Part shown: one piece after another, positions 1 to 11,223 of the stretch
Numbering within the stretch: position 1 is the stretch's first letter
How the letters are laid out: each line of letters opens with the position of its first letter
Assembly: GCA_030698395.1 (NCBI GenBank)
Contig: JAUYKW010000018.1
Coordinates: 44,726-108,725, forward strand
DNA from: a bacterium
GTDB lineage: Bacteria > Patescibacteriota > Patescibacteriia > UBA9570
Direction: 5' to 3'
Length of the DNA: 64,000 bases
Made by a program: the position numbers and the translations under genes
The notes under the pieces: generated by a model
Seen by the model: only the letters and a program-made list of their open reading frames with translations
What the model was told of the DNA's origin: nothing
Database searches by the model: none

Positions 1-311
1 TCGGTTACAGTACCAACAGTGGAACGAGGATTATGAGTAGTTGTTTTTTGATCTATAGAGATAGCAGGAGATAGTCCATCGATTCTGTCTACATCTGGTT
101 TATCCATTAAACCTAAAAATTGACGCGCATATGCTGATAAACTTTCTACATATCTACGTTGTCCTTCAGCATAAATTGTATCGAAAGCCAATGAAGATTT
201 ACCAGAACCTGATAAACCTGTAATTACAACTAATTTGTTTCGCGGAATGTCTATTGAGACATTTTTTAAGTTATGAACTCTCGCGTTTTTTATTGAAATC
301 GCATCTTCCAT
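1..311 (-). CDS. uvrA: Excinuclease ABC subunit A (UvrA), N-terminal part; the gene runs off the window start
   Basis: Reverse-strand translation from the ATG at 311 gives [67 protein letters not shown]. This is the canonical UvrA N-terminus with a Walker A motif and matches E. coli UvrA closely. An in-frame stop lies just upstream of the ATG. Confidence 0.9.
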
Positions 312-400
312 GATTTAGAAAAACATGTTTAACTAATTTGAACTCGAGTAGTATATATGAATATTTAATCTACGTCAAGGTGGTATACTAAGAGGAGCTT

Positions 401-1681
401 ATGACTAGCAAGGTAAAAAAACAATTAGCAACATTACCACAAAAGCCAGGAATTTATTTGTTTAAAAATTCTATTGGTAATGTACTTTATGTAGGTAAAG
501 CGAAGTCTTTAAGTAGCCGAGTTCGATCATACTTTAGACAGCATAATGATTTGAATGAAGCTAAACAAATTATGGTACGGCAAATTGTTGATGTAGATTG
601 GATAGAAACAAAAACTGAATCTGATGCCATAATTTTAGAAGATAAGTTGATCAAAGATTATCAACCTAGATTTAATGTATTAGCAAAGGATGATAAAAGT
701 TTTTTGTATATTCATATAACGGATGAGAAGTTTCCTCAGGTACTAGCAGTACGGAGACCAAATCTTCGTAAAGCTGGAATATTTTATGGACCATATCCAT
801 TTGCTCGTAGTATTAGAGAAGTTCTAAAATTATTACATAACATTTTTCCATATCGGACTTGTAAAAATTTACCAAAAAAGGCTTGTTTAGAATATTACAT
901 TTATAAATGTAAAGCACCGTGCATTAATAAGATTTCAGAATCAGATTATCAAGCATTGATATATGATGTGTTAGCTTTTTTTGAAGGTAGAAATACTTTA
1001 GAGCTAGAATCAAGATTGGAAGAAATGATGCAGGTAGCTTCTGAAGATAAAAAGTTCGAAGATGCAGCAAAGTATCGTGATCAGTTAAAAGCAATAAAAA
1101 AGCTGCGTTCATTTCAAAAAACTCCACGTGAGTATTTAACTGATTATTACCAATTTAAGGCTATCGATCCTGATTTAGGCCTTCAACAGCTACAGGATGC
1201 TCTGGTTTTGCCAGCTCAGCCAAAGAGGGTAGAAGTTTATGATATTTCAAATATCCAAGGAACATATGCGGTTGGATCGATGGTGGTGTTTATTGATGGA
1301 TTGCCAGCTAGGAGTGAATATCGGAGATTTAAAATTAAAACTGTCCAAGGTGCAGATGATTATAAAAGTTTGCAAGAAGTGGTTAGACGGCGATTAAAAA
1401 GAGATTGGCCAAAACCAGATTTAGCTATCATGGATGGAGGTAAGGGGCAATTAAATGCTGTAAAACATTTTTGGCAAGATCATGACGTATCAGTTGTTGC
1501 TTTAGCCAAGAAAAGAGAAGAGCTATTTCTACCTGATCAAGCGATACCAATTACAATGGAAGCTGGTAGTCAGGGATTATTTCTAATTCAAAGAATGCGT
1601 GATGAAGCGCATCGTTTTGCCATCACTTATTATCGTAAATTGCACTCTAAATCAATGCGAGCTAATACCACTAAAAGCTAG
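401..1681 (+). CDS. uvrC: Excinuclease ABC subunit C (UvrC), short form of 426 aa that lacks the C-terminal (HhH)2 domain
   Basis: It has an N-terminal GIY-YIG motif (GIYLFKN...LYVGKAKSLSSRVRSYF). A UVR motif follows (EDAAKYRDQLKAIKKL). The C-terminus is a UvrC RNase H-like endonuclease domain (VEVYDISNIQGTYAVGSMVVF...YRRFKIK). It sits divergent to uvrA. Confidence 0.85.
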   Translation: MTSKVKKQLATLPQKPGIYLFKNSIGNVLYVGKAKSLSSRVRSYFRQHNDLNEAKQIMVRQIVDVDWIETKTESDAIILEDKLIKDYQPRFNVLAKDDKSFLYIHITDEKFPQVLAVRRPNLRKAGIFYGPYPFARSIREVLKLLHNIFPYRTCKNLPKKACLEYYIYKCKAPCINKISESDYQALIYDVLAFFEGRNTLELESRLEEMMQVASEDKKFEDAAKYRDQLKAIKKLRSFQKTPREYLTDYYQFKAIDPDLGLQQLQDALVLPAQPKRVEVYDISNIQGTYAVGSMVVFIDGLPARSEYRRFKIKTVQGADDYKSLQEVVRRRLKRDWPKPDLAIMDGGKGQLNAVKHFWQDHDVSVVALAKKREELFLPDQAIPITMEAGSQGLFLIQRMRDEAHRFAITYYRKLHSKSMRANTTKS

Positions 1682-3083
1682 GGGGAGTAGCTGGTGGAGT
1701 ACCACTTGGTGTTGATGGAATTATTTCCGGAGAATTTGTTGGAGTAGGAGGAATTGGACCTGATGGGGGAATTCCCTGAGTAGGTGCTTGTGGTTGTTGT
1801 GGCAGTGTAGGTTCTAATATTTCAGGGGTAGTAGGAGGATTATCTTGAGTTGGTGGTATAGGTTGTTGAATTGTAGCTGTTTCATCAGCTAGAGTATTTG
1901 CAATCGATGGTTCAGCTTCGAAGGCTGGTGCCATTTCTAAGGAAGCTAAGTCGGTTGCATTAATACCGGTTTGGATTAGTTCAGCATCTGAAATATGAAT
2001 TGCATCTATACCAATTCCAATAACTATGCCATTTTTATCTTGAGAACGATATATTTTTGCATCCGAAGCTAACGAGGCGTTTAATTCTGGTTGTTCTAGA
2101 GTTTTTAATTTGTCTGTAATTGATGAGGGCTCAGTGGTGAGTGTAGATTTAACAGCTGGAGATTCAGTTTTTTGCGGTAGCATGTGCAAGTCTTCTGTTG
2201 TGATGTCAGCATCAGTTACTTCTGTCGGAGAAAAATGTACAGATCCAGTAGCATGTTCAATTAGTAATCCCATTTCGGGTGTGGCATATACTTGAGCACC
2301 GGAAACGACAGTGTTTGCAACTGCCGGATTAGTATCGGAGAATTTTTTATTAAGAATTTCTATAATTTGCTCTGGCGTTAATGACTCTCGCTCTTTCTCG
2401 AGTGGAGTAACAGGCGATTCGGGTGCTTCTTCAATTGGTGAAATAGCTGGTGTGTTCGAAGTTGCTGGAGGAATGGAACCAGATTTATCAATGGTAGGAG
2501 TTGGTTGTTCATCTGTTGAGTTGACTTCAACAGGATGAGGTTTAATAAATTCTAAATCTTTAAAGATGTCTTCACTTTTTTCTGGATCGGTTTTAATTTG
2601 TGTTCGAGCTTCTTGAATTTTCTTTATTTGGTTATTTAGTTTACCCTCATTACTTTCCATGAAGCCGGTTTGTTCAATGAGCTTCTTTAGTTTATCAATT
2701 AAGCCGGTTTGTTCAGAATTAATACTTTCTAATTCAGAGATTAGTTTTTCTTCTGCACTATCCAATTTAGCCAAATAATCGACAGTCGTATCGGATGGTA
2801 CATCTTGAAGGGGTATTACTTGTGGTTTTAGAGATTCTCCAGGATTTTCTACTGGTGTCGATGTTGTCATGGGTTCAGGAGATGTTGTATCAGATTCTGA
2901 AGTAGGTGTTACTGGATTAGTTGTAGCTGAAGCAGTATTCACAAAAGGAAGTGTGATAGCTGGTCCAGACGTTGGAGTAGTTGAATTATCGTTGGGTGTA
3001 CCCATTGGTTGAGGAGGTACTGGATTTGAGGTTGATTCATTCATAATTAATATAATAATAGCATTTTTTTTAAGAAAAATCAA
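1671..3083 (-). CDS. Hypothetical Pro/Thr/Ser-rich low-complexity protein with a central coiled coil and an N-terminal hydrophobic segment, possibly surface or secreted
   Basis: It is a 470-aa ORF. The N-terminus MIFLKKNAIIILIM is followed by long P/T/S-rich tracts (TPPATPPSF, PIPPTPTNSP). The middle has heptad-like segments (KLKKLIEQTGFMESNEGKLNNQIKKIQEARTQIK). I recognise no catalytic motif. Confidence 0.5.
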   Translation of the reverse strand: MIFLKKNAIIILIMNESTSNPVPPQPMGTPNDNSTTPTSGPAITLPFVNTASATTNPVTPTSESDTTSPEPMTTSTPVENPGESLKPQVIPLQDVPSDTTVDYLAKLDSAEEKLISELESINSEQTGLIDKLKKLIEQTGFMESNEGKLNNQIKKIQEARTQIKTDPEKSEDIFKDLEFIKPHPVEVNSTDEQPTPTIDKSGSIPPATSNTPAISPIEEAPESPVTPLEKERESLTPEQIIEILNKKFSDTNPAVANTVVSGAQVYATPEMGLLIEHATGSVHFSPTEVTDADITTEDLHMLPQKTESPAVKSTLTTEPSSITDKLKTLEQPELNASLASDAKIYRSQDKNGIVIGIGIDAIHISDAELIQTGINATDLASLEMAPAFEAEPSIANTLADETATIQQPIPPTQDNPPTTPEILEPTLPQQPQAPTQGIPPSGPIPPTPTNSPEIIPSTPSGTPPATPPSF

Positions 3084-3098
3084 GTTGAAATATTTTAG

Positions 3099-3133
3099 AA
3101 ATACAAAAAAGTGGAGCGTTAAACCCCACTTTT
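3099..3133 (-). terminator. Rho-independent terminator downstream of the 828-aa gene (minus strand)
   Basis: On the minus strand an 8-bp perfect stem (AAAAGTGG / CCACTTTT, 3107..3114 and 3126..3133) is followed by a TTTTTTGTATTT run. Confidence 0.7.
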
Positions 3134-3169
3134 ATAATTTGATTTAGTTATTTATTATTTTTTAATGCT

Positions 3170-5656
3170 TTAAACTGTAGCATTTGCATCAGGATGTTTA
3201 AGAGTTGGCAGTTCAGCTGATATTCTATCAACATTCTTTTCAGCTTCAGCATCTCTTGAGGCCTGAGCTATATCTCCGATTTTTCCAAAAGACATATATT
3301 CAGTAGGAAGTTCATCGTTTGCTACTGATTGCAGACCCTCTAAGGCTGTTTGGATATTTAACTGACCTGCATCTGCTAATGCCTCGGATAGTTGTGGTAA
3401 ATTGATATATTCAACCCCTGCATAATTACCTGGTTCGCCAGATAATATGTAAACACCCTGAGCATTTTGTGCAGTTGTGCCTTCTGGTAATCGAATATCA
3501 ATTAATCTTCCTTGTGCTGGCAAATCTACAAGCATGCGACGCAGATTGTCATTACTAGTTGCGAACTTTTTAGCTAAAGCATTTTTAATTTCGCTTACAT
3601 TATGTTCTCTCGTTTTTACTGCTTCAGTTTTTTCCGTTCCAGCTTCTGCATACGCTTTTTCTTCTGCTGCTTCAATCTGTTCAGACATGCGGGAATACTT
3701 ATTGTCTACACTTGGTGTTTGAACTGTTTCATTTCTGGCCGCTATGGAATCTTGAACGGATTTTGGTAAAGGTATACCAGATAAAGTAGCTTCTAGTTCC
3801 CAGGCATTTTCCATATTAGCATTTGCTTCATTACTAGCTTTTGTGGCTATTGATATTTTTTTATCAAGCGTAGCTAAAGCTTTGCGTAGTGCTCTGCCTT
3901 TTAGCGTTTCTGATTTTTCTAAGTTTGCTCTTTCAACAATTAAGTTACTTTCTATTTGTGAAGCTTTAATAAATGTGTTGGCAGCTTCCATAGATGCTTG
4001 AGATGCTTGTTCTATTGCTGCATTATCGGCATCTTCATTTGTTCTTGATAGTGTTTCAACGAGTTCTTGAGAGCCAGCAACATTGGCTTCAGCTTCTTTA
4101 ATACCAGCCTGAGTATCACGACTAATTTTTTCAAATAACTTGGCTCTTCCTTTTTCATCTGTTTTTCCTGCAAGGAAACGTTGATTTACTTCCCCAATCT
4201 TATCTGATCGTGCATCAAGTAAAGTTTTTAACTTCGCTTGTGCTTGTTCTAAACTTTGTTGAGCAGGCTCTAGAGCAGCGGATTTTTCTGCAGGCGTCAT
4301 TTGTTCCATTGGACGCATTGGTGTAATCATATCTTTAGCCAAAGCAGGGCTGTTTATTGTTACATCATATACGCTTTTGTCTGTTGTGAATCTAAAATCT
4401 TGTTTTTGTCTTGGCGAAAGTTTCGATGCACCTAGTGCTGTTTGTTCATATTCATCACGGAGTGCTCTCTGTTCATGTATATCCGATGGTGTTAGAGGAT
4501 TCATTGCCTCTCCATATTTAACTGGAGCTAGACCTTCTCCTTGTTTAAAAAATTCTTGTTCAACATCGTCACCAGCAAGTTCGCTAATGGCTTTTTCTGT
4601 TTGTTTATCTTCTACTTTTTGAATTTCAACTCCAAAATCACCTAAGTTAATAACTAGGCCACGAGCTCCATCAATTCTGCCATCATATTCTTCATTTATT
4701 TTTGCAATTGCCCGTTTAATCTCAGCGTCATTTAGTTTATCTGTATCAATTTCTGCAATTGCGATTGCCTTAGCATCCATAATTTGTTTGAGTTCTTCTT
4801 GAGCATTAGCAAGAGCTTTGGTTTTTTCTGCAGGTGTCATTTCTGGTTTATTAAAGTCCATGCGAGTTCTTGCTCCAGTACCGGATTCACCAACTTTTAT
4901 ACTATACGGGCTAGCTTGGCTTGATGTTGCAGTCTCTGTTCGTTGTAACTTAATACCACCACTAGCTGTGCGCATATAGAATTCATCTGCCATGTCATTG
5001 ACAATACTGGTCATGCCTGAATCTTGCATATGAGACATCTTCCACATGCTTTGGAATAACTTATTTTGATGTTCTGGGTCAGTAGAGGTTGCAATAGCTT
5101 CTCTTAATTTTCCTACAGCTTCTTGAATACGTTGTAGTTTAGTTTCTTGTCTGGTAAATAAACCAACACGTTCTGCTAGGCGTGTTACTTGAGCTCTTAG
5201 TACACTACGTTGCTCATCCATGGCTTCGTGTCGATTGCTAACAATCGTTTCTAATATTTTTAAGCTGTTAACCATGTGCTCTGCGCTAAGTAATCCTTCT
5301 GGTTTTTCAGCTGTAGCTTCTGCATCTTCATTAGGCAAATCTGAATAATCAACATCACTCATAGGTGTTTGGTAATTTCTAGCTTCAGGAATTCTATTAT
5401 AAGTTACCACTCCTTGGTCTTCTGGTTCTCCAATGTGTTGATCTAAATCTAACATTATGTCATCACTTGGGTCGTGGGAAATGTTTGGTAGTTGAGTTCT
5501 ATCTATTGGTGTTGTGGGGGCATTGTTATCTATATTGTCATCACCTGTATCTTCAAAACGTTCTGCGCCAGATAAAGGTAAGCCAGCATTATTTTCTATT
5601 TTTTTGGCTGGTAGATCTCTTTTATTTATTGGGTCTGTTCTTTCTCTTGCAACCAT
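3170..5656 (-). CDS. Large hypothetical coiled-coil protein of 828 aa with an acidic N-terminus
   Basis: It is a long uninterrupted ORF rich in A/E/K/Q with many heptad-like stretches (LEQAQAKLKTLLDARSDKIGE, AKAIAIAEIDTDKLNDAEIKRAIAKINEEYDGRIDG). It has no TM segments and I recognise no enzymatic motif. Confidence 0.5.
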   Translation of the reverse strand: MVARERTDPINKRDLPAKKIENNAGLPLSGAERFEDTGDDNIDNNAPTTPIDRTQLPNISHDPSDDIMLDLDQHIGEPEDQGVVTYNRIPEARNYQTPMSDVDYSDLPNEDAEATAEKPEGLLSAEHMVNSLKILETIVSNRHEAMDEQRSVLRAQVTRLAERVGLFTRQETKLQRIQEAVGKLREAIATSTDPEHQNKLFQSMWKMSHMQDSGMTSIVNDMADEFYMRTASGGIKLQRTETATSSQASPYSIKVGESGTGARTRMDFNKPEMTPAEKTKALANAQEELKQIMDAKAIAIAEIDTDKLNDAEIKRAIAKINEEYDGRIDGARGLVINLGDFGVEIQKVEDKQTEKAISELAGDDVEQEFFKQGEGLAPVKYGEAMNPLTPSDIHEQRALRDEYEQTALGASKLSPRQKQDFRFTTDKSVYDVTINSPALAKDMITPMRPMEQMTPAEKSAALEPAQQSLEQAQAKLKTLLDARSDKIGEVNQRFLAGKTDEKGRAKLFEKISRDTQAGIKEAEANVAGSQELVETLSRTNEDADNAAIEQASQASMEAANTFIKASQIESNLIVERANLEKSETLKGRALRKALATLDKKISIATKASNEANANMENAWELEATLSGIPLPKSVQDSIAARNETVQTPSVDNKYSRMSEQIEAAEEKAYAEAGTEKTEAVKTREHNVSEIKNALAKKFATSNDNLRRMLVDLPAQGRLIDIRLPEGTTAQNAQGVYILSGEPGNYAGVEYINLPQLSEALADAGQLNIQTALEGLQSVANDELPTEYMSFGKIGDIAQASRDAEAEKNVDRISAELPTLKHPDANATV

Positions 5657-5835
5657 ATATTTGATAGTTAAAGAATAGTGATTTTATTTGAATTTTTTAT
5701 TTTTGATTAATATAAGTATAGCAGAAATTTGAATTTTGTCAAGTAAAATAAGGCTTTTTGTATTATTTTTTATGGATTTTAAATGCTTATTACTTATATC
5801 AATTATTAGTAACATATTTGTATGATGATTAGACC

Positions 5836-5864
5836 TTGACAAATTGTAATATATCGGTGATAAT
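5836..5864 (+). promoter_or_regulatory. Sigma70-like promoter in front of the GC-rich island ORF
   Basis: TTGACA (5836..5841), a 17-nt spacer, then GATAAT (5859..5864). It lies in a very AT-rich intergenic region. The compositional shift to high GC begins a few nucleotides downstream, where a transcript would be expected to start. Confidence 0.5.
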
Positions 5865-6018
5865 GTTCTGTCCTCTTCGTTATGGAGGGGTCTGGTTCTT
5901 ACGGCACTCTATGTCGTTGGCGCCACGCTCTTTTTTACTAGACCGGTTTAGGATAATGCCCTATTCCAAATCGTCGTGCTTTTTCGACAAATCCTTAACT
6001 CACCACAAGGGAGATAAC

Positions 6019-6987
6019 ATGACTGCGCAAGTCATTCCTTTCCCTAGCGGTGGAAGCCGGTCAGGGAAACAAGATATCTATGCTGAGATTCGGCCAAGCC
6101 AATCTCGGCTACAACAACATCGTCAAACCACAATGCAGGTAATTACGGGGACTGAGTGGACGGAACAATACCTCCACCCCCAGAACGTACGCGTGGAGCT
6201 GCCCCAACGTGGGGATGCAGAGCTCTTCGTGACAGTACACGTTCACATCCCGGCAATTCGTGGCCGGCTCCAGATTGGAGCGCAGGCGCTTGAACCGGGT
6301 AGACGACCCAGTGGTTGGGTGATGGCACAGGTAGAGGTGAGCGATCTTCGGCACCACCTCGTGTATGGACCAAGATACAAGAAGGTTCAGTATACGGTGC
6401 GACATGCCTTGGATGGCACTCACATGACCTTCCGGGTCAAGGTGGATCAATTCCCCTTCGGTCAGGCACAGGTGGTGCTTTGGTGGGTAGGCAAGAACGC
6501 CAACACCGATGGCATTTTCGTGCAGGCCAGGGAGATACCAGCTCTGACCTTGTCGACGAACGACCCTACAAGAACGATCACGCCTACGGGAGCGGTCGAT
6601 CGAACGGGAAAGGTCGTCGATAGCAACGTTGTAGTCGAGACCCACAGGTACGCATCCGGGTTTTTAACCGACTTCATCATCAACCTCCCGCACATGGATG
6701 GACAACAACATCCTGGTGTACCGCGGGTTCTCCCACGGCTGGACAAGGTGAACGTGCAAAAGGTGAACGTGCAAGACGGCACGTTGACGGTGATTGACCA
6801 ACTCACTGGCTCTGCCAAGGTGTACGACCATATCGTCTTTACGTGCGAGCGTTCAGACGAGGCTACACACCTCCGGTTCAGAGTCGAGGGGATGGACGCA
6901 ATTCCTGTCGGGTCCGAAGAGCTGGTCCTAGAATGGAGATCGACGTCTCTGGGTGGTTACTACATCCAGGTGATCGTTGATCGCTGA
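6019..6987 (+). CDS. Orphan hypothetical protein of 323 aa encoded on a compositionally foreign high-GC island
   Basis: The ATG at 6019 is preceded by AGGGAGA at 6008..6014, a strong Shine-Dalgarno sequence. The ORF track extends the frame back to a TTG at 5836, which overlaps the promoter hexamers, so the extension is unlikely to be real. The open frame runs 969 bp through DNA far more GC-rich than the rest of the window, and codon choice differs from the neighbours. It has no TM segments and I recognise no motif (no RT, DDE or HNH signature). It is followed by a hairpin at 7011..7031. Confidence 0.55.
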   Translation: MTAQVIPFPSGGSRSGKQDIYAEIRPSQSRLQQHRQTTMQVITGTEWTEQYLHPQNVRVELPQRGDAELFVTVHVHIPAIRGRLQIGAQALEPGRRPSGWVMAQVEVSDLRHHLVYGPRYKKVQYTVRHALDGTHMTFRVKVDQFPFGQAQVVLWWVGKNANTDGIFVQAREIPALTLSTNDPTRTITPTGAVDRTGKVVDSNVVVETHRYASGFLTDFIINLPHMDGQQHPGVPRVLPRLDKVNVQKVNVQDGTLTVIDQLTGSAKVYDHIVFTCERSDEATHLRFRVEGMDAIPVGSEELVLEWRSTSLGGYYIQVIVDR

Positions 6988-7166
6988 AATGTCCAGCATG
7001 GAAGTGAGAGGTACTGCGTACAACGCAGGACTTGAAACGTCGTCGCACATCAACTGCTGACTACCTCTCCATCTTCCCCTTAATCTTATAAATTATGTTT
7101 TAGACTTTTTTGTTTGTAAGTAACACAAAAGTTGAAAGCAGAATTTGTTTCTTTTAGAATCGCTAA

Positions 7167-8093
7167 CTAAGTTATTTTTAAGAGCATTACGAATTGCTCG
7201 AATGCAGAAAAATATTTCTTCGGACGTAATGTTGTATTTTGGTATTCCAACATTACTTCTATCATATAATCATCATGTGTAAACAGAACTACTCGTGATG
7301 GAGAGCTGGTTGTTGTTTCTAACATTAATCCATTTCGTTGGGAGATTTCTGGAATTGATTCAAGAATGTTAGCATTAATATATTCTGGTCTGTATTTTTT
7401 AATCCAATCAAGTGTTGTAACAGTGTCATTTTCTGCTAGTGATATTGTAAGGCTAGCACTTTCTCGATCCTTTGTTTGTAATTTTATTTTGTCTGGACCG
7501 ACTGTATTTACTTCAAAATAGTCTTCATACTCAATCGATAACTCTCCAGCATTAGTATTGAATTGTCTTTCTTGCATTGCTACCGGGTGAGTTATTTTTC
7601 CGTAGGATATATTTTCATCATATGCAGACACCATATTAATATGAGAGCTATATACAACAACTAATACCATAAAACCAATTACAACTAACGCGCAAGCGCT
7701 AAAGAAATGTTCGCCAAAACTTAACTTATTAATTTTAGATTTTTCTTCAATAGTTATTACAGGTGTTTCATTGTCACTCTCAATAGATTCAATGGGTGCA
7801 ACAGAATCGATACTTTCTATCGGTGAAATTGGTTCTAATTCTAATTTTTCAACTATGGACTGTTTTTCTGGAACTGGTTTTGATTTCTTTTGTACTTTTT
7901 TCTTAGCAACAGGTTTCTTAACAACAGTCTTTTTTGTAGTAATTTTTTTAGGTGCTTTTTTAACGGCAATGCTTTTCTTCTTTTTATTAGCTGTAACCTT
8001 TGTTACTTTAGTCGGGGCTTTGGCTTTATTCTCTTTTGCCTTGCTGACTTTAGTATTTTTTGGTTTGCTTATTTTTTTTGTTATTTTTGCCAT
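7167..8093 (-). CDS. Membrane protein with an N-terminal lysine-rich histone-H1-like tail, one TM helix and a C-terminal extracytoplasmic domain
   Basis: The N-terminal roughly 75 aa are MAKITKKISKPKNTKVSKAKENKAKAPTKV...KKAPKKITTKKTVVKKPVAKKKVQKKSKP (KAPKK and KKPVAKK repeats). A short PIESI repeat follows. There is one hydrophobic helix, FSACALVVIGFMVLVVVY, and then a roughly 170-aa non-repetitive domain. Confidence 0.6.
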   Translation of the reverse strand: MAKITKKISKPKNTKVSKAKENKAKAPTKVTKVTANKKKKSIAVKKAPKKITTKKTVVKKPVAKKKVQKKSKPVPEKQSIVEKLELEPISPIESIDSVAPIESIESDNETPVITIEEKSKINKLSFGEHFFSACALVVIGFMVLVVVYSSHINMVSAYDENISYGKITHPVAMQERQFNTNAGELSIEYEDYFEVNTVGPDKIKLQTKDRESASLTISLAENDTVTTLDWIKKYRPEYINANILESIPEISQRNGLMLETTTSSPSRVVLFTHDDYMIEVMLEYQNTTLRPKKYFSAFEQFVMLLKIT

Positions 8094-8138
8094 GGTTTAA
8101 TATTATATTCCTCCAAATAAAAATATATTATAGCGAAG

Positions 8139-10208
8139 CTACATTTTTTCTACAAGTTTTTCTGGAATATCTGCAATAAATCTAGAAGCACTTACAATTT
8201 TTGTAGTACCAAACACAGTTCGCTGATTAGCATAAATAAGATATGCTCGTTCACGGGCGCGGGTTAATGCCACATAGCATAGACGACGCTCTTCCTCCAT
8301 TTCTAGTGGTTGGAATAAACTTCTGGCATGTGGAAATAGCCCTTCTTCCATACCTGCAACGAATACGTTATTGAATTCTAAACCTTTAGCAGCGTGTACA
8401 GTCATCATAGTGACTGCATTGGTGCTTTCGTCAACATCATCTTGATCTGAAATGAGAGCAACTTCTTCTAAGAAAGAGTTGATGCCAGCTTGACCAGGTA
8501 AATGATCGAATTTTTTGGTAACTGATTTTAATTCTTCAATATTTTCTATGCGACGTTGATCTTCTGATAGCTTTGGTGAGAATTGATCAGTGTAGCCGGT
8601 TTTGTCTGCAATCATAGTTAGTAAATCAGACGGAGTTTTTTCTGGAGCTGCCGCAATAATTTCTTGCATGGTTTTTTGAAAATTTAAAAAAGCTAGCCTT
8701 TGCTTTTCTCTTAAGGGTGGTAATTTGGTTTCAGATAATTCAACAAAGGTTGCTTCATTATCTCTGCAGGCTTGTTCTATTTTTAGCCAGCTATTTCTGC
8801 CTAATGATCTGGCAGGTATATTATAAATTCGTTCTAAACTTACCCAGTCAGCCGGATTAGCTACTACTTTCATATAAGCGATGAAATCCTTAATTTCTTT
8901 GCGCTCGTAAAATTTAATACCACCGATTAAACGATAAGGGATATTGTATTTCATGAAAGTTTCTTCTAGAGCACGTGATTGAGCATTGGTTCTATATAAA
9001 ATCACATACTCAGCAAGGTTGATATCTCGTTTTTGCCTTTTAATAACTTCTTCTAGAGCTAGATCCACTTTGTAATCTTTGAAAGTTTGACTTTTCATAA
9101 TTTTATCCAAAATGGACTCATCGGCTTCTGCTATTTGAATAGGGGTATATGAAATATCGTCATTGTCTTTTGGTTCGTTATTGTCCGAAAAATCAAATAT
9201 CTCTCTGATAATGAATTCTCCTTCGAGTTGTTCGTTTTCTACCTCTTTTACGACAATTTTATGTCCCCTGTCATTATCCGTCCAAAGAACCTTTTCCTTT
9301 TGAGAGGTATTATATTTAATAACTTCGTTGGCTGCTTCTAAAATACGTTTGGTGGATCGATAATTTTGTTCTAGTAGCACAACAACTGCATCTGGGTAAT
9401 CATCTTCGAAGTCTAGAATATTTTGTAAATTAGCTCCTCGCCATGAGTAGATGGACTGAAAGTCATCTCCTACTACACAGATATTATGATGCTTATCAGC
9501 TAATTGGTGGACTAATGTATATTGAGCATGATTAGTATCTTGATACTCATCAACCAAGATGTATTTAAATGCTGCTTGGTATTTTTTTAATACTTCTGGA
9601 TGTTCCTGAAAAAGTTTTACTGTTAATTGAATCAAATCATCAAAATCAAGTGCATTATTTCGTTGTAATTCCCCTTGATATTTACTATAAACATGAGCAG
9701 CAGTTTTTTCGATAGTTTCACTTGCCTCAGCTTCGTATGCACTAACATCCTTTAAATCATTTTTTGCACTCGATATCATGTATTTAATTATTTTAGGTGC
9801 GATTACTTTAGTATCGTATCCTAAATCTTTCATACATTTTTTAATCAAGGAATCACTATCCGATGCATCGTAGATGACATAATTAGTATCGTATCCTAAG
9901 ATTTCAATTTCTCGTCTTAAAATTTGTACACAAATTGAATGGAATGTACCTACTACCGGTAATTTTTTTACTTTGCCTTTAAGTAACTTTTGTAAGCGAT
10001 CTTTAATTTCTCCAGCAGCTTTGTTTGTGAATGTTACTGCTAAAATATTCCATGGCTTAACATCTTCCGTTGCAATAATGTAAGCAATCCGATGAATTAA
10101 GGTTTTGGTTTTTCCAGAACCAGCTCCAGCTAAAATTAAAAGGGGTCCATTAGTTTGTTGGACCGCTTTGCGTTGTCTATCGTTTAGAGGGGCTAGTAAT
10201 ATATGCAT
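8139..10208 (-). CDS. pcrA: ATP-dependent DNA helicase of the UvrD/PcrA family (superfamily 1)
   Basis: The N-terminus is LNDRQRKAVQQTNGPLLILAGAGSGKTKTLIHRIAYII (Walker A, helicase motif I). Motif II is DEYQDTN. The C-terminus is UvrD-like (VTMMTVHAAKGLEFNNVFVAGMEEGLFPH). The start is most likely the Met at 10208 (MHILLAPLN). The ORF track extends it 13 codons upstream to 10247. Confidence 0.85.
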   Translation of the reverse strand: MHILLAPLNDRQRKAVQQTNGPLLILAGAGSGKTKTLIHRIAYIIATEDVKPWNILAVTFTNKAAGEIKDRLQKLLKGKVKKLPVVGTFHSICVQILRREIEILGYDTNYVIYDASDSDSLIKKCMKDLGYDTKVIAPKIIKYMISSAKNDLKDVSAYEAEASETIEKTAAHVYSKYQGELQRNNALDFDDLIQLTVKLFQEHPEVLKKYQAAFKYILVDEYQDTNHAQYTLVHQLADKHHNICVVGDDFQSIYSWRGANLQNILDFEDDYPDAVVVLLEQNYRSTKRILEAANEVIKYNTSQKEKVLWTDNDRGHKIVVKEVENEQLEGEFIIREIFDFSDNNEPKDNDDISYTPIQIAEADESILDKIMKSQTFKDYKVDLALEEVIKRQKRDINLAEYVILYRTNAQSRALEETFMKYNIPYRLIGGIKFYERKEIKDFIAYMKVVANPADWVSLERIYNIPARSLGRNSWLKIEQACRDNEATFVELSETKLPPLREKQRLAFLNFQKTMQEIIAAAPEKTPSDLLTMIADKTGYTDQFSPKLSEDQRRIENIEELKSVTKKFDHLPGQAGINSFLEEVALISDQDDVDESTNAVTMMTVHAAKGLEFNNVFVAGMEEGLFPHARSLFQPLEMEEERRLCYVALTRARERAYLIYANQRTVFGTTKIVSASRFIADIPEKLVEKM

Positions 10209-10305
10209 AGCGGATGATAGAATACCACATTTTTTGCAGTGATACAATTTTTCTATATTTTACTAAATTTGTAACCAAGTTGTATTTTTGTGGTAACATT
10301 ATTCT

Positions 10306-11223
10306 ATGCAAGACTTTATAATAAAAACTTCAACCGGAGACGAAATTGAGGTTTATGCTGAACAGTTAGTTAAAAAAAGCAATCAAGGAACAATCGTTGC
10401 CGGTAAACATTTAGGAACCAATGAAGATGTGGTAGTAAAAATATCTCATCCTTTTTCTTTGATTAATGATACAGATCATACAGCTGGTGATAAGACTCAT
10501 GTATTAAGAGAATTAGAGATTTTACCACAGCTGTCTGGAGTTGATGGTATTCCAAAATTCATCGCATCTCATAAGCTGGTTGAGCCAGGAAAAAATGAAC
10601 GATATATTTTTGCAATGTCAAAAGTTAATGGGATTGATTTTGAAGAACGGCGGAAGCAAGATACGGAGCGAAGATTAACATGTGCGGAGGCGACAGATTT
10701 ATTAAAGCAAGTTGGATTAATTTTACAGCAAGCACATGAGCGGGATATTATTCATCGTGATTTAAAATTGAGTAACTTTATGATTTCACCGGATGGTAAG
10801 ATTTCGATAGTGGATTGGGGTACAGCTAAACATATTAGTCAGCCAAAAGATTCTTTTAGCGGTAGTACGCCAGATCATACTGTTATAGGAACGGTGCAAT
10901 TTGTTTCTTACGAACAGATAACTGGTCAGAAGCTAGATCAACGAACAGACATTTATTCACTTGGAGCAGTTACAGCATTGTTACGTTATGGGCCAAAAAT
11001 TAGTCAACGTTACGTGATTGATGAACAAGGTACGGTAACACAGCGCGAGAAAGGAAAGATAGCGAAAGCAGTTGCCGCTCGCGAAACTTTAAAATATGAA
11101 CTGTTTCCTAAGCCTGAAGATGACTGTGAACGTACTTTGCAGGCTGTACTTAAAAAAATGACAGATCCGGATAAGGAGAAGCGTTTTCAGTCAATGAGAG
11201 CAATGATTGAGGCAATTTCTTGA
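10306..11223 (+). CDS. Eukaryotic-like (Hanks-type) Ser/Thr protein kinase, cytoplasmic, 305 aa
   Basis: It has a VAIK-like lysine (VVVKISHP), the catalytic loop IIHRDLKLSNFMI, a DWG (DFG-like) motif in SIVDWGTAKH, and an APE-like region. It has no TM helix or PASTA domains. Confidence 0.8.
   Translation: MQDFIIKTSTGDEIEVYAEQLVKKSNQGTIVAGKHLGTNEDVVVKISHPFSLINDTDHTAGDKTHVLRELEILPQLSGVDGIPKFIASHKLVEPGKNERYIFAMSKVNGIDFEERRKQDTERRLTCAEATDLLKQVGLILQQAHERDIIHRDLKLSNFMISPDGKISIVDWGTAKHISQPKDSFSGSTPDHTVIGTVQFVSYEQITGQKLDQRTDIYSLGAVTALLRYGPKISQRYVIDEQGTVTQREKGKIAKAVAARETLKYELFPKPEDDCERTLQAVLKKMTDPDKEKRFQSMRAMIEAIS

What the first reader, a model, noticed from the sequence alone, without database searches (positions are those of the whole stretch)
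1671..8093. Accessory block wedged between nucleotide-excision-repair genes (uvrA/uvrC and pcrA)
uvrA and uvrC sit on one side and pcrA/uvrD on the other. Between them lie four genes without recognisable enzymatic domains. These are a 470-aa Pro/Thr-rich protein with an N-terminal anchor and a central coiled coil, and an 828-aa acidic coiled-coil protein. The other two are the GC-rich orphan and a membrane protein with a lysine-rich tail. The two minus-strand low-complexity genes are separated by their own terminator (3099..3133), so they may be separate transcripts. Large, fast-evolving coiled-coil and P/T-rich proteins in reduced genomes are typical of surface, host-interaction or pilus-associated functions. 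The block looks like a variable 'hot spot'.
Basis: partly seen in the sequence, partly recalled or inferred. Interest (0 to 1): 0.5.

Follow-up and report, generated by a model that had tools for sequence, protein, structure and literature searches.

The report
Conserved gene block hiding GC-rich gene
The four unannotatable genes between the DNA-repair genes uvrC and pcrA are a conserved, fast-evolving neighbourhood of one group of tiny candidate-phyla (Kerfeldbacteria-like) bacteria rather than a variable accessory island, and one of them is a self-contained GC-rich gene that has kept a foreign-looking composition and an invariant 10-base leader signal in eight related lineages.

Summary
Window 1671-8093 holds four ORFs (470 aa, 828 aa, a 55% GC ORF, 308 aa) between uvrA/uvrC and pcrA, and none matches Pfam, NCBIfam, PHROGs, PADLOC or PDB sequences. 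The "accessory hot spot" reading is mostly wrong. In eight related Kerfeldbacteria-like lineages (PcrA 64-69% identical) the order is kept: pcrA, Lys-rich membrane protein, opposite-strand GC-rich unit, 470-family gene, convergent uvrC, uvrA. Only the slot holding the 828-aa protein varies. The 470-aa protein has no N-terminal anchor.

The unusual part is the GC-rich unit (~5868-7087, + strand). It is protein-coding, shown by ORF length, codon-position GC and an internal duplication (E 4e-7). It stays at 52-59% GC (GC3 ~0.6) in genomes of 35-45% GC. Its codon adaptation lies 11 SD below host genes. It has its own promoter, a 5' hairpin, the exact 10-mer GCCCTATTCC in otherwise unalignable leaders, and usually an occluded ribosome-binding site. 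Its protein diverges erratically (83% identity where PcrA is 97%; 35% where PcrA is 89%) while its UTR ends stay conserved.

I read it as a tightly controlled, diversifying gene whose alleles recombine between lineages. Function is unknown.

The parts
1..311 (-). 5' part of uvrA (944 aa in full), running off the window's left edge. It is divergent from uvrC.
   Evidence: Gene table of Logan contig L046. L046 1..9659 equals window 9659..1 at 100% identity.
401..1681 (+). uvrC, a short form of 426 aa with GIY-YIG, UVR and RNase H-like domains. No C-terminal HhH domain was detected.
   Evidence: Pfam and NCBIfam.
1671..3083 (-). Gene of the '470 family'. It is Pro/Thr-rich and acidic, with a coiled-coil segment and two small repeats ending in the motif SDAELIQ. 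The likely true start is the ATG at 3044 (457 aa). Its 3' end overlaps the 3' end of uvrC by 11 nt, convergently.
   Evidence: ORF list. Homologues at the same position in 8 lineages. Composition and hydropathy. Only coiled-coil hits in PDB.
3107..3133 (-). Terminator-like hairpin (11 bp plus a T-run) between the 828-aa and 470-aa genes.
   Evidence: This is a consensus scan only.
3170..5656 (-). 828-aa acidic protein, predicted mainly as long helices after a disordered N-terminus of about 120 residues. It occupies a slot that varies between lineages. Residues ~116-256 are homologous to the L047 386-aa protein. It shows weak similarity to the coiled-coil module of the 470 family.
   Evidence: Only a self hit among 5.8e9 proteins. 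L047 match E 1e-10. 470/828 similarity E 0.001 and 0.018. Single-sequence AlphaFold2 model.
5715..5742 (-). Promoter-like site (TTGACA-16-TATACT, TG-extended, 11 of 12 matches) upstream of the 828-aa gene.
   Evidence: This is a consensus scan only.
5836..5864 (+). Promoter-like site (TTGACA-17-GATAAT, 11 of 12 matches) of the GC-rich unit. The -35 context TTGACAaatt/tttt recurs in all eight lineages.
5872..5890 (+). GC-rich hairpin at the predicted 5' end of the transcript (CCTCTTCGTTATGGAGGGG). Every lineage has one or two such hairpins with different sequences. In the L048/L058 pair the promoter plus hairpin are about 90% identical.
5958..5967 (+). Invariant leader 10-mer GCCCTATTCC. It occurs once in the window. 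It is exact in 5 independent lineage groups, and L058 has 9 of 10. It is the only k-mer of 9 or more bases shared by 4 or more lineage groups.
6000..6053 (+). Local hairpin pairing the Shine-Dalgarno sequence (GGGAG, 6009-6013) with a pyrimidine run in codons 6-10 (6036-6046). It is predicted to occlude the ribosome-binding site.
   Evidence: The SD is paired locally in 6 of 8 lineages, with z-scores of -1.0 to -3.3 in those six.
6019..6987 (+). GC-rich ORF of 322 aa from the SD-preceded ATG (the frame is open from 5836). The protein is soluble, predicted all-beta, and is an internal tandem duplication.
   Evidence: No stop-free run as long as the observed one in any of 5000 simulations (observed 373 codons, simulated maximum 322), and GC1/GC2/GC3 of 0.64/0.41/0.62. 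The two halves match at E 4e-7. Codon adaptation z = -11. Only a self hit in two exhaustive protein searches.
7006..7087 (+). 3' element. An 8-bp stem (GAGAGGTA / TACCTCTC) encloses about 48 nt and is followed by a C/U-rich tail (CATCTTCCCCTTAATCTT). Analogous purine-arm/pyrimidine-arm stems and CCUCC-like tails follow the stop codon in the other lineages.
   Evidence: Sequence reading. The equivalent element is 45 of 48 nt identical between L048 and L058 and 95% identical between L050 and L054. On its own the stem is not significant against shuffles.
7167..8093 (-). Gene of the '308 family'. It has a Lys-rich N-terminal segment (34% Lys), one transmembrane span and a ~150-aa C-terminal domain. 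It lies 45 nt downstream of pcrA and is probably co-transcribed with it.
   Evidence: The gap to pcrA is 19-71 nt in seven of eight lineages.
8139..10247 (-). pcrA. The likely start is at 10208, since homologues and the NCBI record begin MH(E/I)LLAPLN.

Best explanation
The block is a vertically inherited, lineage-specific and fast-evolving gene neighbourhood of a Kerfeldbacteria-like Patescibacteria clade. It is not an accessory island.

Shown: it has three conserved components.
(i) A Lys-rich single-pass membrane protein sits directly downstream of pcrA. Co-transcription with pcrA is inferred from the short gap, not shown.
(ii) A cytoplasmic Pro/Thr-rich coiled-coil protein family lies convergent with uvrC. 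The 828-aa protein sits in a variable slot next to it and may be a paralogous expansion.
(iii) A self-contained GC-rich transcription unit lies on the opposite strand.

Inferred, for the GC-rich unit: it encodes a small beta-rich cytoplasmic protein (duplicated in this genome) and is kept translationally quiet. The basis is host-rare codons, a ribosome-binding site paired with the first codons, and a hairpin at the 5' end that would stabilise the RNA. An unknown trans-acting factor recognising the invariant single-stranded GCCCUAUUCC is proposed to release or tune expression. The coding part diversifies rapidly. Alleles are occasionally exchanged between lineages by homologous recombination through the conserved ends (promoter plus 5' hairpin, and the 3' stem-loop). 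Such recombination, through GC-biased repair or selection on RNA structure, would maintain the high GC content. This behaviour is typical of conflict genes such as toxin, immunity or anti-phage genes. That functional class is a guess.
For: Synteny and homology:
- Eight lineages keep the same order and orientation.
- Family homology is significant.

The GC unit is coding:
- No stop-free run as long as the observed one in any of 5000 simulations (observed 373 codons, simulated maximum 322).
- GC1-GC2 and GC3-GC2 lie more than 5 SD above stop-free random sequence.
- The same GC1>GC3>GC2 pattern holds in seven of the eight lineages; L048 is near flat.
- An SD plus start codon is present in each lineage.
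- The window protein has an internal duplication, E 4e-7.
- Amino-acid similarity among the relatives' ORFs reaches E 1e-5 to 1e-3.
- pN is below pS.

Persistent composition:
- GC is 0.52-0.59 and GC3 0.58-0.64, against host GC3 of 0.2-0.38.
- The CAI-like index is 0.39 against 0.70 +/- 0.03 for host genes.

Conserved control elements:
- Promoter, 5' hairpins, the exact 10-mer, and SD pairing in 6 of 8 lineages.

Decoupled evolution:
- L050/L054: PcrA is 97% identical. The GC ORF is 83% identical with pS 0.19, against 0.51-0.70 in neighbouring genes. The 3' trailer is 95% identical, the best-conserved DNA in the locus.
- L048/L058: PcrA is 89% identical but the GC ORF only 35%, with pS 0.65. 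The promoter plus hairpin stay about 90% identical and the 3' stem-loop 45 of 48 nt.

Not an artefact:
- An independent assembly is identical.
Against: - No function is shown for any of the four proteins.
- The window's GC ORF cannot be linked to the relatives' family by sequence alone (hmmsearch E 0.036, hhalign E 0.25). The link rests on position, strand, composition, promoter, leader motif and a C-terminal 'VVLxW' pattern.
- RNAalifold finds no consensus structure around the 10-mer.
- The 8-11-bp 3' stems are common in shuffled sequence.
- The RBS hairpin z-scores are modest, and two lineages fold differently.
- Promoters and terminators are consensus matches only.
- Recombination and GC-biased repair are inferred from two close pairs only.
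- No trans-acting partner for the motif was found.
- Structure prediction failed (pLDDT 36).
Confidence: 0.55

Rival explanations
1. First reader's view. The whole block is an accessory, variable hot spot holding surface, host-interaction or pilus-associated proteins that come and go between related genomes.
For: - The proteins diverge fast, at 21-41% identity where PcrA is 64-72%.
- The slot of the 828-aa protein differs between lineages.
- L048/L049 gained an extra GC-rich gene next to pcrA.
- The 308-aa protein is membrane-anchored with an outward-facing domain.
- One relative has a prepilin-like gene nearby.
Against: - Three of the four components are present in the same order and orientation in all eight lineages. 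Two of them are also in the more distant L057.
- The region has no mobility genes, tRNA genes or flanking repeats.
- The 470- and 828-aa proteins have no signal peptide or membrane span.
- The PilN and IcmG/DotF hits are far below threshold.
Confidence: 0.12
2. The GC-rich unit is foreign DNA, a moron-like cassette acquired or repeatedly replaced by horizontal transfer from higher-GC donors. Its composition simply reflects the donor.
For: - GC3 is 0.62 against 0.20-0.25 for the neighbouring genes, and codon adaptation is 11 SD below host genes.
- It has its own promoter and terminator-like end.
- A second, unrelated GC-rich ORF (Tat-signal lipoprotein-like, GC3 0.82) sits at the same locus in L048/L049 only.
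- The L050/L054 unit is less diverged than its flanks.
Against: - The unit sits at the same place, on the same strand, with the same promoter context and the same 10-mer in eight lineages whose synonymous sites are saturated.
- The ORFs of seven lineages form one family.
- In L048/L058 the ORF has diverged at synonymous sites as much as its neighbours.
- No donor-like sequence exists in 5.8e9 proteins, 1.84e9 representatives, plasmids, phages or viral contigs.
Confidence: 0.2
3. The GC-rich unit is chiefly a structured non-coding RNA. A GC-rich segment in an AT-rich genome is the classic signature. On this view the ORF is incidental or secondary.
For: - The best-conserved parts are the untranslated ends and a 10-nt leader motif, not the protein.
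- The GC enrichment begins at the predicted transcription start and ends at the 3' tail.
- The protein has no homologues outside the clade.
Against: - The ORF length is significant, and codon-position periodicity holds in seven of the eight lineages.
- An SD plus start codon is conserved.
- There is an amino-acid-level internal duplication and family similarity.
- pN is below pS.
- There is no Rfam match at gathering or E<=10.
- There is no consensus structure around the motif.
Confidence: 0.1
4. The GC-rich segment is an assembly chimera or contamination.
For: It is a single 1.2-kb segment with a composition 20 points above a metagenome-assembled genome.
Against: - An independent Logan assembly of run SRR13727534 is identical over 9659 bp across both junctions.
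- Equivalent GC-rich units occur at the same position in seven other lineages from different samples.
Confidence: 0.02

Closest known systems
Prophage 'morons' (autonomous promoter-gene-terminator units of deviant base composition inserted between conserved genes)
   Same: The unit is a single gene with its own promoter-like site and a structured 3' end. Its composition differs sharply from its neighbours, and it sits between conserved genes.
   Different: It is not in a prophage. It is present at the same site in eight lineages rather than sporadically. It belongs to one protein family. Its untranslated ends are conserved.
Integration hot spots or genomic islets between core genes
   Same: The region lies between core repair genes. 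One slot (the 828-aa protein) and one lineage-specific insertion (L048 island 1) do vary.
   Different: There is no integrase, tRNA gene or direct repeats. Most of the content is conserved in order and orientation.
Translationally silent, highly structured mRNAs of type I toxin-antitoxin loci (hok-like)
   Same: The predicted mRNA is stable and GC-rich, with a 5' hairpin, an occluded Shine-Dalgarno sequence and a structured 3' end.
   Different: The product is a 137-322-aa soluble beta-rich protein, not a small hydrophobic peptide. No antisense RNA was identified, and no 5'-3' pairing was predicted.
Diversifying loci exchanged by recombination through conserved flanks (for example antigenic or immunity gene alleles)
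   Same: Conserved flanks enclose a hypervariable coding core. Divergence between lineage pairs is not clock-like.
   Different: There is no evidence of surface exposure, silent copies or a dedicated recombinase. Only two close pairs were examined.
Coiled-coil scaffold proteins with Pro-rich linkers (the weak hits were to SMC, the seryl-tRNA synthetase arm, PilN and IcmG/DotF)
   Same: The 470 and 828 proteins have long predicted helices or coiled coil, acidic composition and disordered Pro/Thr-rich segments.
   Different: All matches are below family thresholds and confined to the coiled coil. The small 'SDAELIQ' repeats have no known relative.

Membership tests
Accessory genomic island / integration hot spot | Presence/absence polymorphism of the content among related genomes | tested here: not met
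   The 308 family, the GC unit and the 470 family are present in the same order in 8 lineages. Only the 828 slot and L048 island 1 vary.
Accessory genomic island / integration hot spot | Mobility signatures: integrase or transposase, adjacent tRNA gene, flanking direct repeats | tested here: not met
   No tRNA gene in 64 kb. No flanking repeats round the GC unit. No recombinase domain in the gene tables within +/-10 kb.
Accessory genomic island / integration hot spot | Atypical base composition | tested here: inconclusive
   Met only by the GC unit (53% against 35%). The 470, 828 and 308 genes have host-like GC3 of 0.20-0.23.
Moron-like autonomous unit | Own promoter and terminator flanking a single gene of deviant composition | tested here: inconclusive
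   The promoter consensus matches 11 of 12. The 3' end is a stem plus a C/U-rich tail, which is not a canonical terminator and is not significant alone. Composition is deviant. No transcript data.
Moron-like autonomous unit | Location inside a prophage | tested here: not met
   The neighbours are pcrA, uvrC, uvrA, SecG and RNase J. No PHROGs hits.
Known structured RNA family (Rfam 15) | Covariance-model match at or above the gathering score | tested here: not met
   No match in the window or in L047/L048/L050 at gathering score. Nothing relevant at E<=10 in 5650-7200.
Cis-regulatory structured leader (riboswitch-like) | Conserved secondary structure with covariation | tested here: not met
   RNAalifold predicts 0 consensus pairs round the invariant 10-mer in 8 sequences. 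Only the primary sequence is conserved.
Type I toxin-antitoxin (hok-like) | Small (<60 aa) hydrophobic toxin peptide | tested here: not met
   The ORFs are 137-322 aa with no hydrophobic span.
Type I toxin-antitoxin (hok-like) | Antisense RNA antitoxin | not tested
   No transcript data. Antisense promoters were not analysed.
Diversity-generating retroelement target | Nearby reverse transcriptase and a template/variable repeat pair | tested here: not met
   No RT domain in the gene tables within +/-10 kb. No ~100-bp near-repeat in 5650-7250.
Type IV pilus / type IVB secretion components (PilN, IcmG/DotF) | Profile match above the family cut-off | tested here: not met
   IcmG/DotF scores 16.8 bits against a cut-off of 200. 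PilN E 0.62, confined to the coiled coil.
GC-ORF family of the relatives (alignment A6) | Significant sequence similarity of the window's 322-aa protein to the family profile | tested here: inconclusive
   hmmsearch E 0.036 (Z=1), with both 'VVLxW' sites hit. hhalign gives a colinear 87-column alignment at 28% identity, E 0.25. Position, strand, composition, promoter and the 10-mer agree.

The most novel reading that the evidence does not exclude
The GC-rich unit represents an undescribed class of expression cassette in candidate-phyla bacteria. It would be a hypervariable, host-rare-codon gene embedded in conserved RNA-level control elements: a 5' hairpin, an invariant GCCCUAUUCC recognition site, an occluded ribosome-binding site and a 3' stem-loop. 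Its alleles, and occasionally unrelated passenger ORFs such as the Tat-lipoprotein gene of L048, would be swapped between lineages through the conserved ends. Its high GC content would be actively maintained, by recombination-associated GC bias or by selection on RNA, rather than inherited from a donor.
Probability: 0.25. Interest if true: 0.7.

Novelty: new variant of a known kind. Interest (0 to 1): 0.5.

Why it matters
For the finding as written, the result is corrective. A block that looks accessory in one genome is a conserved, clade-specific neighbourhood. Its unannotatable proteins are therefore candidates for core biology of an uncultivated lineage. One example is a membrane protein with a Lys-rich tail that is always coupled to the PcrA helicase.

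The GC-rich unit is the part worth following up. A gene that stays 15-20 GC points above its genome across deep divergence, with saturated neighbours, an invariant 10-base leader signal and erratic protein divergence, is hard to explain by ordinary amelioration. It offers a compact natural test case for two open questions: what maintains local base composition in bacteria (selection on RNA, biased repair or gene flow), and how reduced symbionts regulate conflict-type genes.

Tried and rejected
- Word-indexed search of 5.8e9 proteins for the GC ORF and the 828-aa protein returned only self hits.
- An exhaustive phmmer search of 1.84e9 representatives with the GC ORF returned only itself.
- A scan of GTDB species genomes with PcrA found only distant genomes, at 48% identity or less. 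It was useless for synteny.
- A JGI metagenome scan with the 470-family alignment failed twice. Alignment A1 was too divergent, and A5 found no relative.
- A viral-contig scan and plasmid and phage blastn with the GC unit found nothing.
- Rfam found nothing on the window or on three relatives.
- AlphaFold2 on the GC ORF without an alignment gave pLDDT 36 and is unusable, so no fold search was run.
- Profile searches of PDB with the 470 and 308 families gave only coiled-coil or noise hits.
- The idea that the 3' C/U-rich tail pairs with the Shine-Dalgarno sequence was rejected. Full-length folds pair the SD locally instead.
- The idea that the 3' stem is significant on its own was rejected. Shuffles reach the same length in 5-98% of trials.
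- A search for an intramolecular partner of the 10-mer was inconclusive and partly mis-anchored.
- Recent HGT of the whole unit as the sole explanation was rejected, because of L048/L058.
- Assembly chimera was rejected.
- Literature searches (Kerfeldbacteria; Patescibacteria + GC-rich + orphan) found nothing relevant.

Full report
**1. What is in the window**

The ORF list confirms the four genes of the finding:
- 1671..3083 (-), 470 aa
- 3170..5656 (-), 828 aa
- 5836..6987 (+), the GC-rich ORF
- 7167..8093 (-), 308 aa

The flanks are as described. uvrC is at 401..1681 (+), with GIY-YIG, UVR and RNase H-like domains (TIGR00194, E 2e-122). pcrA is at 8139..10247 (-) (TIGR01073, E 6e-242). uvrA starts at window 311 on the minus strand and runs off the edge. 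This is seen in the Logan contig L046, an independent assembly of run SRR13727534 that is 100% identical to window 9659..1.

The best PcrA matches carry the names Candidatus Kerfeldbacteria or Patescibacteria group. The organism is therefore a candidate-phyla-radiation bacterium. The NCBI record is an unclassified MAG with a contig of 112,874 bp.

**2. The four proteins**

None of the four matches Pfam, NCBIfam, PHROGs or PADLOC at meaningful scores.

*The 470-aa protein.* It is 13% Pro and 12% Thr, with pI 4.3, and has no hydrophobic span. The 13 N-terminal residues that suggested an "anchor" come from a TTG start and are absent from all seven homologues. The ATG at 3044 is the likely start. 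A profile of the family hits only coiled-coil segments in PDB.

*The 828-aa protein.* It is acidic (pI 4.8) and has no hydrophobic span. A single-sequence AlphaFold2 model has low overall confidence (pLDDT 48). It gives a disordered N-terminus of about 120 residues followed by helices of 40-66 residues at pLDDT 58-78.

*The 308-aa protein.* It has a Lys-rich N-terminal segment (34% Lys in the first 95 residues), one membrane span and a ~150-aa C-terminal domain.

*Transcription signals.* A terminator-like hairpin at 3133..3107 separates the 828 and 470 genes. Two strong divergent promoter-like sites (11 of 12 matches each) lie at 5742..5715 (-) and 5836..5864 (+). All of these are consensus matches only.

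**3. Accessory or conserved?**

A scan of GTDB species genomes found no close relative. A protein search with PcrA found many at 57-68% identity, and their contigs were fetched.

In eight lineages (window, L047, L048/L049, L058, L050/L052, L054, L055, L056) the order and orientation are the same:
- pcrA
- a ~290-316-aa Lys-rich membrane protein
- a GC-rich unit on the opposite strand
- a 367-437-aa homologue of the 470-aa protein
- convergent uvrC, overlapping or abutting in most lineages
- divergent uvrA

Homology is significant:
- 470 family: E 3e-51 (L047) and 7e-28 (L050)
- 308 family: E 6e-21, 2e-17 and 3e-7
- Both families align over eight sequences

The more distant L057 keeps the 308 and 470 homologues but has no GC unit.

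What is variable is the slot between the GC unit and the 470-family gene:
- an 828-aa protein here
- a 386-aa protein in L047, homologous over about 140 residues (E 1e-10)
- an unrelated 865-aa protein in L056
- nothing in five lineages

The 828-aa protein shares a weakly similar coiled-coil module with the 470 family (E 0.001 and 0.018). This could be paralogy or coiled-coil bias.

The proteins do evolve fast, at 21-41% identity where PcrA is 64-72%.

**4. The GC-rich unit is real and coding**

It is the only segment of the 64-kb window above 46% GC (5851-7100, 53% against 35%). It is present in the independent assembly.

Evidence that the ORF is coding:
- The stop-free run of 373 codons was not reached in 5000 simulated sequences of the same composition (maximum 322).
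- GC at codon positions 1/2/3 is 0.64/0.41/0.62. These differences lie more than 5 SD beyond stop-free random sequence.
- An SD (GGGAG) precedes the ATG at 6019.
- The two halves of the 322-aa protein match each other at E 4e-7. The protein is an internal tandem duplication.

The ORF has no homologue among 5.8e9 proteins, nor in an exhaustive phmmer search of 1.84e9 representatives. It has no relative in viral contigs, plasmids or phages. There is no Rfam match.

**5. The unit is conserved, and so is its odd composition**

Every one of the other seven lineages has a GC-rich segment at the same place and on the same strand. Each holds an ORF of 137-192 aa with 0.52-0.59 GC. GC3 is 0.58-0.64, against 0.20-0.38 for host genes. 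Seven of the eight lineages show the coding-type position pattern; L048 is near flat.

These ORFs form one family. Pairwise phmmer E-values reach 1e-5 to 1e-3, and the alignment A6 is coherent.

The window's larger protein cannot be joined to the family by sequence alone (E 0.036 and 0.25). The profile does hit the "VVLxW" site at the end of each of its two repeats.

In the window the ORF's codon adaptation to host usage is 0.39, against 0.70 +/- 0.03 for 42 host ORFs (z = -11).

**6. Control elements**

All lineages share the following:
- the promoter context TTGACA(a/t)(a/t)tt
- one or two GC-rich hairpins at the predicted 5' end
- an SD plus start codon
- a purine-arm/pyrimidine-arm stem after the stop codon, followed by a C/U-rich tail

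The leaders are otherwise unalignable, yet the exact 10-mer GCCCTATTCC occurs once in each of five independent lineage groups. L058 has TCCCTATTCC and L048 has a CCATTCC variant. It is the only k-mer of 9 or more bases shared by 4 or more lineage groups.

RNAalifold finds no consensus structure round the 10-mer. In single-sequence folds the motif lies fully in a hairpin loop in three lineages and is partly paired in the other three that carry the exact 10-mer. I therefore treat it as a linear recognition site with an unknown partner.

The SD is paired with a pyrimidine run in the first ~10 codons in six of eight lineages (z -1.0 to -3.3 in those six). This probably also explains the vaguely similar N-terminal peptides.

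The 3' stems are not significant on their own against shuffles.

**7. Mode of evolution**

*L050 against L054 (PcrA 97% identical).*
- Synonymous divergence pS is 0.51-0.70 in pcrA, uvrC and the 308 and 470 genes.
- pS is 0.19 in the GC ORF, with dN/dS 0.47.
- The 150 nt after the stop codon are 95% identical, the best-conserved DNA of the locus.

*L048 against L058 (PcrA 89% identical).*
- The GC ORF is only 35% identical, with pN 0.46 and pS 0.65.
- The 308 and 470 proteins are 58-62% identical.
- The promoter plus 5' hairpin stay about 90% identical, and 45 of 48 nt of the 3' stem-loop are identical.

The coding core thus diverges erratically while the ends are held. The simplest reading is diversifying or relaxed evolution of the protein plus occasional allele exchange through the conserved ends. 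Two pairs are a thin basis for this.

L048/L049 also carry a second GC-rich unit between pcrA and the membrane-protein gene. It encodes a Tat-signal lipoprotein-like ORF (GC3 0.82), with CCCATTCC about 35 nt upstream of its SD and a C/U-rich tail. It is absent from the sister lineage L058. Insertion of GC-rich genes at this locus does therefore happen.

**8. Interpretation**

*Shown.*
- Synteny is conserved.
- The GC unit is coding.
- Its deviant composition is persistent.
- The 10-mer is invariant.
- Divergence is decoupled between the coding core and the ends.

*Inferred.*
- The unit is an autonomous transcript kept translationally quiet, by rare codons and an occluded RBS, and stabilised by a 5' hairpin.
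- A trans-acting factor reads the 10-mer.
- Recombination-associated GC bias, or selection on RNA, maintains the GC content.
- The product belongs to a conflict-type function.

*Rivals.*
- Recent foreign acquisition is weakened by conservation in eight lineages and by L048/L058.
- A mainly non-coding RNA is weakened by all the coding signals and the lack of consensus structure.
- An assembly artefact is excluded.

Nothing relevant was found in the literature library.

**9. Verdict**

The block as described is ordinary in kind: clade-specific hypothetical proteins in a conserved neighbourhood. The accessory reading is largely refuted. The embedded GC-rich unit is unusual and unexplained, and it deserves a dedicated follow-up.

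Noticed in passing
window 401-1681; also L047, L048, L050, L054-L058: UvrC in this clade is short (393-462 aa). It has GIY-YIG, UVR and RNase H-like domains, but no C-terminal helix-hairpin-helix domain is detected.
   Followed up: partly
L048 12300-12900 (and L049 5951-6550): A second GC-rich unit is inserted between pcrA and the membrane-protein gene. It has a 122-aa ORF with a twin-arginine signal and lipobox (GC3 0.82). CCCATTCC lies about 35 nt upstream of its SD, and it has a C/U-rich tail. It is absent from the sister lineage L058.
   Followed up: partly
Proteins P0021, P0025, P0087, P0090-P0092, P0103: Several related Patescibacteria PcrA homologues are 900-1100 aa and carry intein/Hint domains (PF14890, PF01079). 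The window's PcrA has none.
   Followed up: no
Upstream of pcrA: window 10306-11223; L047 3897-4485; L054 9380-9968; L057 8974-9919; L056 8783-9964: The slot upstream of pcrA is the truly variable one. Different lineages have a Ser/Thr kinase, PhdYeFM-PemK or RelB-YafQ toxin-antitoxin pairs, a GDSL lipase or an AAA/DUF4143 protein there.
   Followed up: no
L057 9602-9919 (-): A GC-rich (51%) 105-aa ORF that looks like a ribbon-helix-helix protein sits next to a RelB-YafQ pair. It is preceded by the same TTGACAaatt promoter context as the GC units.
   Followed up: no
L055 14510-17344: uvrA is called as two ORFs (400 + 539 aa) in this relative. This could be a frameshift, a pseudogene or an assembly error.
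   Followed up: no
L050 13112-13339 (-) and L054 equivalent: The ~290-nt region downstream of the GC ORF is 93-98% identical between L050 and L054. It contains a 75-codon ORF with weak coding signal (GC 0.50/0.47/0.37). It could be a conserved RNA element or a small gene.
   Followed up: partly
window 8139-10247 and 1671-3083: The mechanical ORF starts (TTG at 10247 and at 3083) are probably too far upstream. Homologues indicate starts at 10208 (MHILLAPLN) and 3044 (MNESTSNP).
   Followed up: yes
L046 12199-13119; L047 15022-15972; L050 19667-20578 and others: A ~300-316-aa protein with no Pfam match always follows uvrA. It is another clade-conserved unknown lying just outside the window's left edge.
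   Followed up: no
window 6109-6645 (-): A 178-codon antisense ORF lies inside the GC unit. Its codon-position GC mirrors the sense frame, so it is most likely a shadow ORF of GC-rich coding DNA.
   Followed up: partly
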